Source: Laetmonice hystrix
Taxonomy: Eukaryota
Direction: 5' to 3'
Assembly (NCBI GenBank): GCA_965235115.1
Contig: OZ249436.1
Location: forward strand, 13,950,001 to 14,014,000
DNA: 64,000 nucleotides
A program made the position numbers. The first letter of the stretch is position 1, and each line of letters begins with the position of its first letter. This document shows positions 19,101 through 52,700 of the stretch, one piece after another.

Positions 19101-22100
19101 TTTTCAACCCTTTCATGTATGTGCCATCTGTCCGAACAGTCATTATTACAGTTGTGTCCCCAAAGATATGGTGAACGGGCTTCAATATTCTGGTTCACAT
19201 CAAGGTAAGCAGACAGCCATCTTCGCGTACACGATATGGGTAGACAGGTAAAAGGCAACTATTTTGCCACATTGTAGACCAATTTATTTCATTTGGAGAG
19301 AGACCTTTAAGTGTCCTTTAAGTAGGCATAGGCGAACAATATGAATAGTACATATTATTAGGTAAGCCCCACCCTATTCCATCGATGATATCCCGGTCCA
19401 TAGAACGGACGATACCACGACGACTCACACAAGGCCCTGTTCACGTTTATAATACCATGCACGACGACTCACACAAGGCCCTGTTCACGTTTACAATACC
19501 ACGACGACTCACACAAGGCCCTGTTCACGTTTAGAATACCACGACGACTCACACAAGGCCCTGTTCACGTTTACAATACCACGACGACTCACACAAGGCC
19601 CTGTTCACGTTTACAATACCACGACGACTCACACAAGGCTCTGTTCACGTTTACAATACCACGACGACTCACACAAGGCCCTGTTCACGTTTAGAACACA
19701 AGGCCCTGTTCACGTTTACAATACCACGACGACTCACACAAGGCCCTGTTCACGTTTACAATACCACGACGACTCACACAAGGCCCTGATCACGTTTACA
19801 ATACCACAACGACTCACACAAGGCCCTGTTCACGTTTAGAATACCACGACGACTCACACAAGGCTCTGTTCACGTTTACAATACCACGACGACTCACACA
19901 AGGCCCTGTTCACGTTTAGAACACAAGGCCCTGTTCACGTTTAGAATACCACGACGACTCACACAAGGCCCTGTTCACGTTTAGAATACCACGACGACTC
20001 ACACAAGGCCCTGTTCACGTTTAGAATACCACGACGACTCACACAAGGCCCTGTTCATGTTTAGAATACCACGACGACTCACACAAGGCCCTGTTCACAT
20101 TTAGAATACCACGACGACTCACACAAGGCCCTGTTCACGTTTAGAAACTGAGAAATTTAAACACCTTTACTGAGTTAAGGCCGGGCTGTGTCAACCACCT
20201 TTGTACGTGTCGACAGGTCGGGGTGGTGCTAACGAGCTCCAATCACGCACGTCTACCATTATGATACTTGGTGTAACCTGCCTGGCTCCTTGACAAAAAA
20301 CCCGGCGTCACTTCAAGGCTGCCTTGTCACCCGAGTTGACAGATCCGATGACGGGACCAAGTGGTCACACTAACCACGCAACACCTCAGCAAAGTGGGCC
20401 CAGAAATCAAGCAATCATGCCCCCACCCACCGCCATCGGGAACCTACCTCGGCGCTGCTAAATCCTGGCTGAGCAAATTGATCGGATCACGTTTAATGGC
20501 CACCTGCATCGGAATTGAGACACGAAACTGAGAGGGGGCGGCGACCGCCTACAGCCAATTTCCCGCCAGGCGCCTGGCTGGGACCTGCTTGATACAAACA
20601 ACGATAGAGCTACGATAGGTGTAGGAGAAAAGGGCTGTCCAGACTTGGACTTGTAAATTGGTGGTAAATTAGAATCATGACAAGAGGCCAAGCATTATTA
20701 AAACAAGCTGAATAGAGGTCCGTCAACTGGCTCATCCATCACGTCATGGCTACGTGGGAACTATGTACAGTGGATGTACGTCTTTAACCGTAAGGAAACA
20801 CGGGCCAACCTGCCAAATCACCGGACTCAGACACACTGATGGCGATTCGTTTAGTAACACCTGATAACCGATAACCCATGATTGGGTCCCTCCACTGGCA
20901 ATTCTTACCGACATCGACCCGTGTCAAACATAAGGTTCTGTCTCTATCGTATATCGGAGACTACATTATGTCCTGGTCAACAAAAACAACGTTAAACTTT
21001 TGTGTTTATACTAAAGACGTCTGGTGGAGTATCTGAATCAGCTTCAGCTGTAGGAGCTACACGTTGAGTAGAATACCCACAGCCCATGGCAGCAATTCCC
21101 CTATTCTATGTACGACTTACAATAAATTATTGTAGTGCCGCTCGCTAATTTGGTGACTGTCGTTTGTGACCCCGGCTGGTTTCCAATTAGGATATCTATA
21201 TTGTGTGAGACACCCCGCTACTCTACCCCGTCTGACATCATCAACTTCTTCGGTTCATACACTCAAGATTTTAACATGCCACAGGGGGATTCATGGCTTC
21301 GAAAGTAATGTCCGGAAAATGCCAAATACAAGTGTCGGACGCAGTGCATCTACGAGCCACACGCGGGCACAGATAGTAAATGGATGATCTCAGGGTAAAC
21401 CTATGTCCAAATGTAAACCACTGTACGTATCAGTAAAGAATATATCCCCCAACTTTTCATTATTCATTTTGATATGTCAACACCGAAGTTTCCATCCAAA
21501 ATTACACTAACTTGCCACGGCTTGCACATGGAACCAATATAGATTATAAACCTGTTCATTTCCTGTCGAGTGCTGAGCACAGCGGCAGTCGGCCCAATCT
21601 AGTTTGTATCCCAGGCCGGAGATAATCAAGGTTGTCGGTGGACCTGCTGCCGACCGGATCCGTCCCCCGGATCGCAAGTCCTGATAACAACCATTGGGGA
21701 TTAAATGAAACATATAAACCGTCTCGGCTCGCTAACATACCTGTCAGATGGTCACAGAATCTCAACATCAACACAGACAACAATATCCATTGTAGCTGAC
21801 ACCCCACATATATATTGTGGTGGGAGACATCGAGAGACGCCCAGCGTTTCGTGTTACAAGGAGGTCTACGAATTGACATCGGGATGGCAGTGGTATTGAA
21901 GAAGGCGACTCTAAGACTGGGAGGGTCTCGACTTGCTTCATGTCCCAAACCAGCTTCCCACCAAGCTCAAACCATAGGTGCCGACGACGGAGGAAATGAG
22001 CAGGTAAGCAGCCTATAAAACTTACAACGAAATAAACTCCTTCTTGGCACTTGTATAGAGATATCCCTTTTCCCTCTTGGAAGATATATAAAAAGGGCGG

Positions 22101-49700: not shown

Positions 49701-52700
49701 CACTGGTAAAAACCTACCTCTGCATATCACTACCCCAATCACTGGTGAATCCTACCTCTGCATATCACTACCCCAATCACTGGTGAATCCTACCTCTGCA
49801 TATCACTACCCATGCAATCACTGGTGAATCCTACCTCTGCATATCACTACCCATGCAATCACTGGTGAATCCTACCTCTGCATATCCTCACTATCTTTGT
49901 TCTCTAATGTAGGAGTGGTGACAACATTGAGGGAGATGTTGACAACACCACCCCCACGTCTGCCCGTCACTACCCCAATCACTGGTGAATCCTACCTCTG
50001 CATATCCTCACTATCTTTGTTCTCTAATGTAGGAGTACAACATTGAGAGAGATGTTGACAACACCACTCCCACGTCTGCCCGTCACTACCCCAATCACTG
50101 GTGAATCCTACCTCTGCATATCCTCACTATCTTTGTTCTCTAATGTAGGAGTGGTGACAACATTGAGGGAGATGTTGACAACACCACTCCCACGTCTGCC
50201 CGTCACTACCCCAATCACTGGTGAATCCTACCTCTGCATATCCTCACTATCTTTGTTCTCTAATGTAGGAGTGGTGACAACATTGAGGGAGATGTTGACA
50301 ACACCACTCCCACGTCTGCCCGTCACTACCCCAATCACTGGTGAATCCTACCTCTGCATATCCTCACTATCTTTGTTCTCTAATGTAGGAGTGGTGACAA
50401 CATTGAGAGAGATGTTGACAACACTCCCACGTCTGCCCGTCACTACCCCAATCACTGGTGAATCCTACCTCTGCATATCCTCACTATCTTTGTTCTCTAA
50501 TGTAGGAGTGGTGAGAACATTGAGGGAGATGTTGACAACACTCCCACGTCTGCCCGTCACTACCCCAATCACTGGTGAATCCTACCTCTGCATATCCTCA
50601 CTATCTTTGTTCTCTAATGTAGGAGTGGTGAGAACATTGAGGGAGATGTTGACAACACCACTCCCACGTCTGCCCGTCACTACCCCAATCACTGGTGAAT
50701 CCTACCTCTGCATATCCTCACTATCTTTGTTCTCTAATGTAGGAGTGGTGAGAACATTGAGGGAGATGTTGACAACACCACTCCCACGTCTGCCCGTCAC
50801 TACCCCAATCACTGGTGAATCCTACCTCTGCATATCCTCACTATCTTTGTTCTCTAATGTAGGAGTGGTGAGAACATTGAGGGAGATGTTGACAACACCA
50901 CTCCCACGTCTGCCCGTCACTAACCCAATCACAGCGGAGACATTCCATTTTAAAAATAATTTCGCTTGGTGTCCCTGGGGTTCAAGGGTAAATATTTGAA
51001 GAATTTGGTGTATCACTTTAAGTATAATACACCAAACAATACACTTTTGGTCGTCAGAGTTTGCAGTAGTCAATAAACACCTGTTTGTACACGTCTAGAT
51101 TCTACAGAAAACCGAGCGTGTCATTTAAAAGGAGACGTGTACAGACGAACGTCAACCTCCTACCCGAAAACGAAAGCAAAATCCATTAACATGTCATCAA
51201 TCAGTTTCCACGAATAATGTTTTAAAAAAAGTCTTTTCATTTGCTGCACTATAGATAATGAATGCTGATAATTCGTTTTTTAAAAGAAACATAAGTTTTA
51301 AAGAGGATTTTTCTGCAAGGTTTGCTCACTGTCAGTAAATACTGTATTCTGCCTTAGTTTCCTAAAGTCATTCGGCAATCTTGATATTTTGAATTTAAAA
51401 ATACATAATATATTGCCTATAGATCTCATTTCAGACATGTCTTACCGTCACACACCTATTCGCAAAATATGACATGTTTTAAGCCCTGGGTAGAAGTGTG
51501 AAGTAGAACCGATCCTGTGTAAGGTAAGGACCCAAGACCGCCATAACGCCAGCCCCAGAAGGCGTCCAAATCATGGGCCGCCATCTTGGGCCACACAACA
51601 CTGGGCGGTCGCAGATCAAAGCATTATGGTCACAGATCTCTGTCTCTGGCGCCATTTGGAGCAATTTGTGACACTTAGCCGACAACACGGACGGTTTCCT
51701 GAAAGCGGGTGAGACCGGTTAGACAGGCCGAGAGGTGGGGCGGTCGACGAGCGGGGGGCGGCTGGGCGCTGGCTGCCCTCTCCAACCTCCCGAGCCCTCA
51801 GCCACATCCGTGCAACCCACGGCCGAAAAAAAACCACACACACACCGAGATTGTGCTACAAGGTCCATCAGGGACGGCAGCAATGTCGGCCGAAATGTCT
51901 CCTGCTGCCAAGGACTGGACTTTTATGACTGGCACCTGACGAGGACTTTGAATTGGTCTGACTGGATAATGTTCTCATATCCCAGTCTGGCTGGATGCAC
52001 TTCCCTAGGTGGTACTGCCTCAGTGAGGCGAATATACTCTGTCACCTTTTGGTCTTTGTCGGATCGAGGATCTACGCCGACGTTCTCCTATATTCTGTCT
52101 TTATATGTCACGACTTCAACCATGTCATGGACATCCAAGAAATAAAACACCTTTTAAAGTGAATCTGTTTAAATATTGCTAGAAAACAATGGCTCTCGTC
52201 TGCGAAATAACTTTATAGTTCTCCTTTCAATGTTAACCGTGGTGAAGTTACAAGGTAGGTTACAGATATGTGGAATACAAGTAATCCAGGAAAACACCGA
52301 GGAAGACGATTATGTTTGGTGTCACCACACAGAACCTCAAGGAATCCAAGCTCATACTACAAAAACAGATAATGTCGTCCTATAGATACCATGTCCCTTC
52401 TAACGCTTTCCTCAGATGTCTGTCACAGGGCAAGTATACAGGGTAGATAATGTCGTCCTATAGATACCATGTCCCTACCAACGCTTTCCTCAGATGTCTG
52501 TCACAGGGCAAGTATACAGGGTAGATAATGTCGTCCTATAGATACCATGTCCCTTCTAACGCTTTCCTCAGATGTCTGTCACAGGGCAAGTATACAGGGT
52601 AGATAATGTCGTCCTATAGATACCATGTCCCTTCTAACGCTTTCCTCAGATGTCTGTCACAGGGCAAGTATACAGGGTAGATAATGTCATCCTATAGATA

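What the first reader, a model, noticed from the sequence alone, without database searches (positions are those of the whole stretch)
19412..50974. Recurrent pattern: minisatellites that start in exon-like sequence and amplify a 5' splice site
Seen: besides the CYP10 array, three unrelated units carry exact GTGAGT on the minus strand (40-, 65- and 72-bp arrays). The 120-bp unit has GAG|GTAGGA on minus and the 24-bp unit has CAG|GTACAT on plus. In the four minus-strand cases, the unique flank upstream holds an acceptor that defines an exon-like segment (20147-20123, 44509-44454, 35208-35100, 50974-50826). In four arrays the unit extends only about 14-18 nt past the donor. Rough expectation for GTRAGT across about 640 bp of unit sequence on both strands is about 0.6, against 3 observed: a modest excess. 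Inference: exon 3' ends may be hotspots for minisatellite birth in this genome, creating families of multi-donor exons.
Basis: partly seen in the sequence, partly recalled or inferred. Interest (0 to 1): 0.65.

Follow-up and report, generated by a model that had tools for sequence, protein, structure and literature searches.

The report
One real splice-site minisatellite, four unproven
In this repeat-rich stretch of an invertebrate genome, one tandem repeat really does copy the end of a cytochrome P450 exon together with its splice signal, a layout already known from amphioxus and a human gene, while the other four repeats said to do the same have no evidence of an exon beside them.

Summary
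The window is animal DNA from a spiralian: the best named relatives of its acetylcholine-receptor exon are nemertean and annelid proteins at 71-76% identity. Minisatellites cover 15.7% of it.

One array is a proven exon-end amplification. The 75-bp unit, with 9 identical donors, is the last 64 nt of a mitochondrial-clan P450 exon plus 11 nt of intron. This layout is already known as amphioxus "mirages" (PMC3087553, PMC3902484) and as the human F7 intron-7 VNTR (PMC1557585).

For the four minus-strand arrays, no test supports an exon in the flank. Pfam found 0 families in 111 minus-strand ORFs. A whole-library HMMER search gave one spurious hit. The Atlas gave no usable hit.

The motif excess is not robust. 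P is 0.02-0.05 against the window rate, 0.11 against shuffles of the units themselves and 0.14 with a 9-mer donor matrix.

A hotspot at exon 3' ends is neither needed nor testable here. Verdict: a new member of a known kind, of modest interest.

The parts
26911..27615 (+). 75-bp minisatellite of 9 full units plus a diverged partial tenth. Each unit is the last 64 nt of a P450 exon plus the first 11 nt of the intron. It holds 9 identical donors (TTCAG|GTACGT) exactly 75 nt apart, all in the same phase.
   Evidence: Units 2-8 are identical; the first unit and the tail share a C where the inner units have T.
26808..26974 (+). Authentic P450 exon (end of the I-helix to the K-helix ExxR motif). Its 3' end seeds the 75-bp array.
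   Evidence: Pfam p450 E 8.1e-13, profile positions 278-332. Best solved structure CYP24A1, chain 3k9v_A, E 2.2e-7. Acceptor and donor read. The phase fits the next exon, which begins at 30077.
22715..32084 (+). Mitochondrial-clan cytochrome P450 gene. The span is approximate and is given by the first and last exon-bearing ORFs, with at least 9 exon ORFs. It contains four arrays: 24 bp, 75 bp, 24 bp and a C-rich one.
   Evidence: Colinear Pfam p450 matches on 5 of 9 ORFs. CYP11A1 and CYP24A1 are the best PDB hits. Seven donors were read and scored.
24809..25298 (+). 24-bp minisatellite with 20 copies of CAG|GTACAT. It lies wholly inside a P450 intron, 226 nt downstream of the real donor at 24583.
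19412..20146 (-). 40-bp minisatellite with interspersed 25-bp variants and a 225-bp higher-order period. GTGAGT occurs 17 times on minus.
20123..20147 (-). No evidence of transcription or coding.
   Evidence: read; no family in the region; the acceptor passes the filter; chance 0.10
33595..35107 (-). 72-bp minisatellite of 21 units; GTGAGT occurs 20 times on minus. The array starts only 8 nt before the GT. One frame is open through the whole array.
35100..35208 (-).
   Evidence: read; its ORF 35095-35247 has no Pfam family and no Atlas hit; the acceptor fails the filter
43775..44505 (-). 65-bp minisatellite of 11 units; TAA|GTGAGT occurs 11 times on minus.
44454..44509 (-).
   Evidence: read; ORF 44453-44602 has no Pfam family; the acceptor fails the filter
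49688..50932 (-). Compound array: a 120-bp unit x about 9 (49856-50932) running into a nested array of about 41 bp (49688-49886) made from the unit junction. GAG|GTAGGA occurs 12 times on minus.
   Evidence: The best-scoring donor-like 9-mer of the 120-bp unit is a different site, on the plus strand.
50826..50974 (-). One frame is open, with a stop codon straight after the GT. Unsupported.
   Evidence: read; ORF 50825-51094 has no Pfam family, only a spurious repetitive hit in the whole-library HMMER search and no Atlas hit
7908..9195 (+). Perfect tandem duplication of 642-643 bp, x2, spanning about 460 nt of intron, the acceptor (cag|T at 9012/9013) and the first 183 nt of the large acetylcholine-receptor exon. 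This is an acceptor-side boundary duplication.
   Evidence: exon identity from Pfam Neur_chan_LBD and Neur_chan_memb

Best explanation
The window is gene-bearing DNA of a spiralian invertebrate in which tandem duplication is very frequent: minisatellites make up 15.7% of the bases. Most arrays lie in introns or in sequence with no detectable gene.

One array arose when a 75-bp stretch straddling an exon-intron junction of a mitochondrial-clan P450 gene was duplicated in tandem and then expanded and homogenised. The stretch is the last 64 nt of the exon plus 11 nt of intron. The result is nine identical, in-phase 5' splice sites. This is the 'mirage' architecture of amphioxus genes and of the human F7 intron-7 VNTR.

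Shown: the exon identity, the unit boundaries, the nine identical donors, and the open frame through the array. Inferred by analogy with F7 and the amphioxus cases: the first, authentic donor is the one spliced, and the other copies are removed as intron. Also inferred: the mutational route, which would be replication slippage or unequal exchange. The near-identity of the inner units, with divergent edge units, fits this route.

The four minus-strand arrays are most likely ordinary minisatellites. Their donor-like hexamers and upstream AGs are what their composition gives by chance. No special hotspot at exon 3' ends is needed to explain this window.
For: P450 exon and array: Pfam p450 E 8.1e-13 on 26808-26972, colinear with four other exon ORFs. 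The best PDB hit is CYP24A1. The junction ...KETFR|LYPI... is in phase with the next exon. The unit boundaries are 64 + 11 nt. There are 9 donors at exact 75-nt spacing, units 2-8 are identical, and the edge units share a variant. The ORF stays open for 267 aa through the array.

High repeat load: 10,048 of 64,000 bases lie in arrays.

No exon evidence for the other flanks: 0 Pfam families in 111 minus-strand ORFs and 0 in 135 plus-strand ORFs. The whole-library HMMER search gave 1 hit, E 1.3e-5, to a repetitive ORF. The Atlas gave no usable hit. The three larger candidate exons cannot be chained in frame.

Chance tests: P = 0.11 and P = 0.14. In 13 of 15 arrays the plus strand has negative GC skew and in none is it positive, which accounts for the shared strand. 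About 0.15 arrays would be expected to cover a P450 donor by chance.

Prior art: mirages (passages read in PMC3087553, and PMC3902484) and F7 (abstract of PMC1557585).
Against: Against the window-wide rate, the strict hexamer GTRAGT is nominally in excess (3 loci against 0.56-0.79 expected, P 0.020-0.046). Four arrays share a short intronic tail of 11-16 nt after the GT. For the three GTRAGT arrays, P(at least 2 with a tail of 16 nt or less) = 0.10, and for the 40- and 65-bp pair alone the value is 0.047. One real P450 donor is AAG|GTAGGA, the same hexamer as in the 120-bp unit. Pfam and protein searches cannot see non-coding exons, UTR exons or lineage-specific genes, and no RNA data were available. 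So the flanks are unsupported, not disproved.
Confidence: 0.7

Rival explanations
1. One reading: all five arrays began in real exons, coding or non-coding. Exon 3' ends are mutational hotspots for minisatellite birth in this genome and produce families of multi-donor exons.
For: One proven case. Nominal GTRAGT excess, P 0.02-0.05. Short intronic tails of 11-16 nt in four arrays. Donor strengths within the range of real donors. An AG lies upstream of each array.
Against: No homology or protein-likeness for any of the four flanks. The excess disappears under composition-aware nulls. 2 of 4 acceptors fail a mild filter, and chance gives such a site in 10-41% of cases. The candidate exons do not chain in frame. 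One boundary-covering array among four in the P450 gene is within chance, P 0.14. The 72-bp and 24-bp arrays do not share the geometry.
Confidence: 0.13
2. The arrays are internal tandem-repeat modules of dispersed mobile elements, as in the repeat-carrying non-autonomous elements described in some invertebrates (recalled, not checked here). On this reading the donor-like motifs travel with the element.
For: None directly. Only one inverted 86% repeat pair is present, at 39074-39224 and 40712-40870.
Against: Self-comparison of the window shows no repeated flanks around any array. No transposase or reverse-transcriptase family appeared in the 362 ORFs scanned. The P450 array is plainly derived from its own exon. 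A 64-kb window cannot exclude families with copies elsewhere in the genome.
Confidence: 0.08
3. Some of the copy numbers, or the perfect 642-bp duplication, are assembly artefacts and not real alleles.
For: The 642-bp copies are 100% identical, and units 2-8 of the P450 array are identical.
Against: All the arrays carry internal variants or higher-order structure typical of real minisatellites. The window holds no N.
Confidence: 0.07

Closest known systems
Amphioxus 'mirages': minisatellite-like tandem duplications of exon-intron boundaries. Adh3, globins BflGb6 and BflGb9, and other loci are named in PMC3087553 (passages read). Adh, troponin C and PGBD5 are named in PMC3902484 (passage read).
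   Same: The tandem repeat unit spans an exon-intron boundary and copies the splice signal many times. Unit sizes overlap (10-72 bp for Adh3, about 150-160 bp for the globins, against 75 bp here). Both 5' and 3' boundaries can be affected, as in the P450 donor array and the receptor acceptor duplication here. Edge units escape homogenisation in both (here; globin passage).
   Different: Mirages were described in cephalochordates; this window is from a spiralian. Normal splicing and length or somatic instability were shown experimentally for amphioxus but could not be tested here. The original Adh paper (PMC117041) is not held, so its details come from the citing papers only.
Human F7 intron-7 37-bp VNTR (PMC1557585, abstract read)
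   Same: The first repeat element spans the exon-intron boundary, so the authentic donor is followed by several identical pseudo-donors. This is exactly the layout of the 75-bp P450 array.
   Different: In F7 it was shown experimentally that the most upstream donor is selected. Here that is only inferred. The unit here is twice as long, a multiple of three, and open in frame, so use of a later donor would add 25 residues per unit and would not break the frame.
Vertebrate megasatellites that overlap exon-intron junctions ('OVERMEGA'), bioRxiv 10.1101/2021.07.19.452908 (passages read)
   Same: An exon-intron segment is duplicated and amplified in tandem.
   Different: Their units are at least 90 bases long, were found through repeated protein motifs, and include whole exons that are expressed as protein repeats. 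Here only an exon end is copied, and the copies are presumably intronic.
Intron gain by tandem duplication of AG|GT-containing sequence (Rogers model and later cases, as cited in PMC3087553; titles seen only in the listing: PMC4974935, PMC2891723)
   Same: Duplication of an exon piece with a splice signal creates extra potential splice sites inside a gene.
   Different: No new intron or exon is shown here. The copies lie downstream of an existing donor within an existing intron.

Membership tests
Mirage-type minisatellite: 75-bp P450 array (26911-27615) | Head-to-tail tandem array of minisatellite-sized units | tested here: met
   TRF: period 75, 9.3 copies, 98% matches. Exact 75-nt spacing of the 9 donors.
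Mirage-type minisatellite: 75-bp P450 array (26911-27615) | The unit spans a true exon-intron boundary and carries the splice signal | tested here: met
   The exon is proven by Pfam p450 (E 8.1e-13) and by CYP24A1 alignment. The unit is 64 nt of exon plus 11 nt of intron. The phase fits the next exon.
Mirage-type minisatellite: 75-bp P450 array (26911-27615) | The authentic copy is spliced normally and the extra copies do not give aberrant mRNA | not testable with these tools
   No transcript data are available. Protein searches with the exon and with the array ORF found nothing.
Mirage-type minisatellite: 75-bp P450 array (26911-27615) | Length instability or polymorphism between alleles | not testable with these tools
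   Only one haplotype is in hand. The identity of units 2-8 suggests recent turnover but is not a test.
Mirage-type minisatellite: four minus-strand arrays (40, 72, 65 and 120 bp) | Head-to-tail tandem array of minisatellite-sized units | tested here: met
   boundaries
Mirage-type minisatellite: four minus-strand arrays (40, 72, 65 and 120 bp) | The unit spans a true exon-intron boundary | tested here: inconclusive
   AG...GT brackets exist, but there is no Pfam family, no true relative among 1.84 billion representatives for the 120-bp flank, no Atlas hit and no in-frame chain. Non-coding exons cannot be excluded without RNA data.
F7-type multi-donor VNTR | The first element covers the authentic donor and identical pseudo-donors follow | tested here: met
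   9 identical TTCAG|GTACGT sites; the first, at 26975, ends the homology-supported exon
F7-type multi-donor VNTR | The upstream-most donor is selected | not testable with these tools
   This needs transcript evidence; none is available.
   No CYP10 sequence came back from any tool. The nearest solved structures are the mitochondrial P450s CYP24A1 and CYP11A1/11B. This supports the mitochondrial clan only.

The most novel reading that the evidence does not exclude
In this spiralian genome, exon 3' ends really do seed minisatellites above chance and with a stereotyped geometry: the unit ends 11-16 nt into the intron. That would point to a birth mechanism coupled to the splice site or to transcription. 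The four minus-strand arrays would then mark unannotated, possibly non-coding, multi-donor exons, and the 'mirage' phenomenon would be widespread outside cephalochordates.
Probability: 0.1. Interest if true: 0.65.

Novelty: new member of a known kind. Interest (0 to 1): 0.3.

Why it matters
An exon followed by nine identical, in-phase donors is a natural test case for how the spliceosome chooses among equivalent 5' splice sites. It is also a possible raw material for new exons or introns. Its presence in a spiralian suggests that 'mirages' are a by-product of high minisatellite turnover in any intron-rich genome and are not an amphioxus peculiarity. Four literature searches turned up no report of this in a spiralian. 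The window gives one proven case and a second boundary duplication. It gives no evidence for a special hotspot.

Tried and rejected
It was replaced by stop-free ORFs. Three sets of 111, 135 and 116 ORFs of 45 aa or more were put into alignments A1-A3 purely as containers and scanned. The only families found were Neur_chan_memb and a weak zf_topless match. Not scanned: minus-strand ORFs at 55.9-64 kb, both strands at 1-10 kb, and any ORF under 45 aa.
- **Word-indexed protein searches** with the P450 exon (longer proteins) and with the 267-aa ORF through the array (near lengths) found nothing, so the presence of the array in relatives could not be tested. The third search gave the taxon. Its closest hits, read, are unspliced ORF calls from unnamed contigs.
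- **Amphioxus origin** was my first guess and was rejected.
- **Mobile-element origin:** no repeated flanks were found.
- **Rfam and tRNA scans** found nothing.
- **The original mirage paper** (PMC117041) is not held.
- **Collection scans:** Genome contigs holds only bacteria and archaea and was not scanned. No related animal locus could therefore be fetched.
- **Joined coding sequence:** exons were searched one by one.
- **Paper supplements** were not opened. The globin paper's additional files 4-7 (mirage alignments) may hold unit geometries worth comparing.

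
Full report
**1. What the window is**

The window has no N, 45% G+C and a CpG observed/expected ratio of 0.80. Tandem Repeats Finder lists 54 rows, which reduce to about 15 independent minisatellite loci with periods of 20-195 bp. Together they cover 10,048 of 64,000 bases, or 15.7%.

Two genes can be recognised, both on the plus strand.

- **A nicotinic acetylcholine-receptor subunit.** The large exon ORF at 8903-10054 matches Pfam Neur_chan_LBD (E 2.4e-38) and Neur_chan_memb (E 9.5e-64). 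A further Neur_chan_memb match lies downstream.
- **A cytochrome P450 at about 22.7-32.1 kb.** Five of its nine exon-bearing ORFs match the Pfam p450 profile colinearly, at profile positions 24-82, 90-138, 152-216, 278-332 and 361-414. Its nearest solved structures are the mitochondrial P450s CYP24A1 (E 2.2e-7) and CYP11A1/11B (E 3.8e-9 and weaker).

The best named relatives of the receptor exon are from the nemerteans Lineus longissimus (76%) and Tubulanus polymorphus (71%) and the annelids Owenia fusiformis (73%) and Paralvinella palmiformis (74%). Unnamed records reach 92-94%. The organism is therefore a spiralian invertebrate. It is not amphioxus, which was my first guess, and it is not human. 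The closest unnamed hits are unspliced ORF calls whose intron-derived parts bear no likeness to the window. I did not try to trace them.

**2. The observation**

Motif copies counted:

| Array | Motif | Copies | Strand |
|---|---|---|---|
| 40 bp | GTGAGT | 17 | minus |
| 72 bp | GTGAGT | 20 | minus |
| 65 bp | GTGAGT | 11 | minus |
| 49688-50932 (120 bp plus nested array) | GAGGTAGGA | 12 | minus |
| 24 bp | CAGGTACAT | 20 | plus |
| 75 bp (P450) | TTCAGGTACGT | 9 | plus |

Geometry of each unit, taking the start of the array as the start of the unit:

| Unit | nt before the GT | nt from the G of GT to the unit end |
|---|---|---|
| 75 bp (P450) | 64 | 11 |
| 40 bp | 24 | 16 |
| 65 bp | 52 | 13 |
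| 120 bp | 107 | 13 |
| 72 bp | 8 | 64 |
| 24 bp | 20 | 4 |

The four exon-like segments are bounded by AG and GT exactly where stated.

**3. The proven case**

The exon at 26808-26974 encodes the end of the I-helix through to the K-helix ExxR motif (...KETFR). It has an acceptor (cag|ACC) and a donor (CAG|GTACGT), and it joins in phase to the next exon at 30077 (...R|LYPI...).

The 75-bp array begins 64 nt before this donor. It repeats that stretch, plus 11 nt of intron, nine times at exact 75-nt spacing, and ends in a diverged partial tenth unit. Units 2-8 are identical. The first unit and the tail share a C where the inner units have T. This is the edge-versus-core pattern of arrays that turn over by unequal exchange, and the same pattern is described for a globin mirage.

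Because 75 is a multiple of three and the unit has no stop codon in frame, the reading frame stays open for 267 aa through the array. Use of a later donor would therefore insert 25-residue repeats instead of truncating the protein.

Which donor is used cannot be told from sequence. By analogy with F7, where the upstream-most of identical donors is selected (PMC1557585, abstract), and with amphioxus mirages, which are reported not to disturb splicing, I infer that the first donor is used.

**4. A second boundary duplication**

Positions 7908-8553 are repeated perfectly at 8553-9195. The duplication starts in the last unit of the 44-bp array. It runs through about 460 nt of intron and the acceptor at 9012/9013, and it ends 183 nt into the receptor exon. 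It is the acceptor-side counterpart of the P450 array, in two copies. Its 100% identity means that it is either very recent or an assembly artefact.

**5. The four minus-strand arrays**

No test supports an exon in any of their flanks.

- **Pfam:** no family in 111 minus-strand ORFs of 45 aa or more at 32.1-55.9 kb, a set that includes the ORFs holding three of the candidate exons. There was none in 135 plus-strand ORFs at 32.1-64 kb. In 116 ORFs at 10.1-22.7 kb the only matches were the receptor's membrane region and one weak zf_topless match (E 0.0065).
- **HMMER:** the longest candidate, ORF 50825-51094, was run against all 1.84 billion representatives. It gave one hit (E 1.3e-5) to a 515-aa translation of someone else's tandem repeat, matching the part upstream of the proposed exon.
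- **ESM Atlas:** no usable hit for that ORF or for ORF 35095-35247.
- **Reading frame:** the 149-, 56- and 109-nt candidates each have an open frame but cannot follow one another in a single frame.
- **Flanks:** they are not repeated elsewhere in the window.

All of this leaves non-coding or lineage-specific exons possible.

**6. Is it more than chance?**

- **Window-wide rate.** GTRAGT occurs 45 times in 53,693 non-array bases on two strands.
- **Composition-aware null.** The arrays are strand-asymmetric: 13 of 15 have negative GC skew on the plus strand and none has positive skew. Shuffling each unit while keeping its dinucleotides gives 1.23 expected loci, almost all on the minus strand, and P(>=3) = 0.11. 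This null is conservative, because the motif's own dinucleotides are kept.
- **9-mer donor matrix.** Using frequencies recalled from memory, and comparing with 2,000 random non-array segments of the same length per locus, only the P450 unit stands out (P 0.028). The 40-, 72- and 65-bp units give 0.29, 0.21 and 0.15. In the 120-bp unit the top site is a different one, on the plus strand. Fisher's combined P over 15 loci is 0.14.
- **Strength compared with real donors.** Seven real P450 donors score 5.7-10.9 bits, and only 2 of the 7 are GTRAGT. They are plausible donors, but sites of that quality are common.
- **Register.** For the three GTRAGT arrays, P(at least 2 with a tail of 16 nt or less) = 0.10.
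- **Acceptors.** 2 of 4 pass a mild filter, and chance gives such a site in 10-41% of cases.
- **Within the P450 gene.** Four arrays would be expected to cover a donor 0.15 times, so one case has P = 0.14 (assuming 9 introns).

No single test is decisive. Together they show no robust excess.

**7. What is known**

Tandem repeats that span exon-intron boundaries were named 'mirages' in amphioxus. PMC3087553 names Adh3, two globin genes and other loci (passages read), and PMC3902484 names Adh, troponin C and PGBD5 (passage read). They have been proposed as a source of new introns. The human F7 VNTR has the same layout. Vertebrate megasatellites that overlap junctions are a larger-scale analogue.

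In the held library, only 3 papers contain both 'mirages' and Branchiostoma. Four further searches turned up no spiralian case and no genome-wide test. That is a statement about those searches, not about the whole literature. The founding paper (PMC117041) is not held.

**8. Verdict**

- One array is a genuine exon-end, multi-donor minisatellite: a new spiralian member of a known kind.
- A second boundary duplication lies nearby, in the receptor gene.
- The other four arrays are unproven and are best read as ordinary minisatellites.
- The hotspot hypothesis is not supported by this window. It needs transcript data and a genome-wide count.
- Exons were searched one by one. The joined coding sequence was left out, so the P450 family name (CYP10 or another) stays open.

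Noticed in passing
window 7908-9195 (+): Perfect 642-643-bp tandem duplication (x2). It begins in the last unit of the 44-bp minisatellite and ends 183 nt inside the large acetylcholine-receptor exon, so the intron-exon (acceptor) boundary is present twice. The 100% identity means it is very recent or an assembly artefact.
   Followed up: partly
window 60701-61934: 20-bp unit x 62 copies at 60% G+C, open for 444-490 aa in all six frames. Because 20 is not a multiple of three, all three frames of a strand read the same 20-residue Pro/Thr/His-rich repeat, so unit gains or losses could not break the frame. Whether it is coding is unknown.
   Followed up: no
window 52367-53213 (+): The 78-bp unit (x 10.9) carries CTTCTAAC...TTTCCTCAG|A on the plus strand. 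There is no exon evidence: 0 Pfam families in the flanking ORFs.
   Followed up: no
window, all arrays: In 13 of 15 minisatellite units the plus strand has negative GC skew and in none is it positive. The whole window drifts to a cumulative skew of -2.44. The G-rich strand of nearly all arrays is the minus strand. This could reflect a shared replication or transcription direction.
   Followed up: partly
window 49688-49886 within 49688-50932 (-): A nested array of about 41 bp (x 5) is built from the junction of two 120-bp units. It includes the GAG|GTAGGA site, so the junction region was amplified a second time.
   Followed up: partly
window 28456-28983 and 30672-30910 (+): Two C/A-rich arrays (24-bp and about 28-bp units, almost no G or T on plus) lie in successive P450 introns. 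A (TCT)32 microsatellite lies in the intron right after the haem-binding exon, at 31689-31784.
   Followed up: no
window 39074-39224 and 40712-40870: An inverted repeat pair of about 155 bp at 86% identity, 1.5 kb apart. It may be the ends of a small mobile element. This is the only dispersed repeat found within the window.
   Followed up: no
window 19471-20146 (-): The 40-bp array has a 225-bp higher-order period (x 3) made of 40-bp units with an interspersed 25-bp short variant. This shows growth by multi-unit blocks.
   Followed up: no
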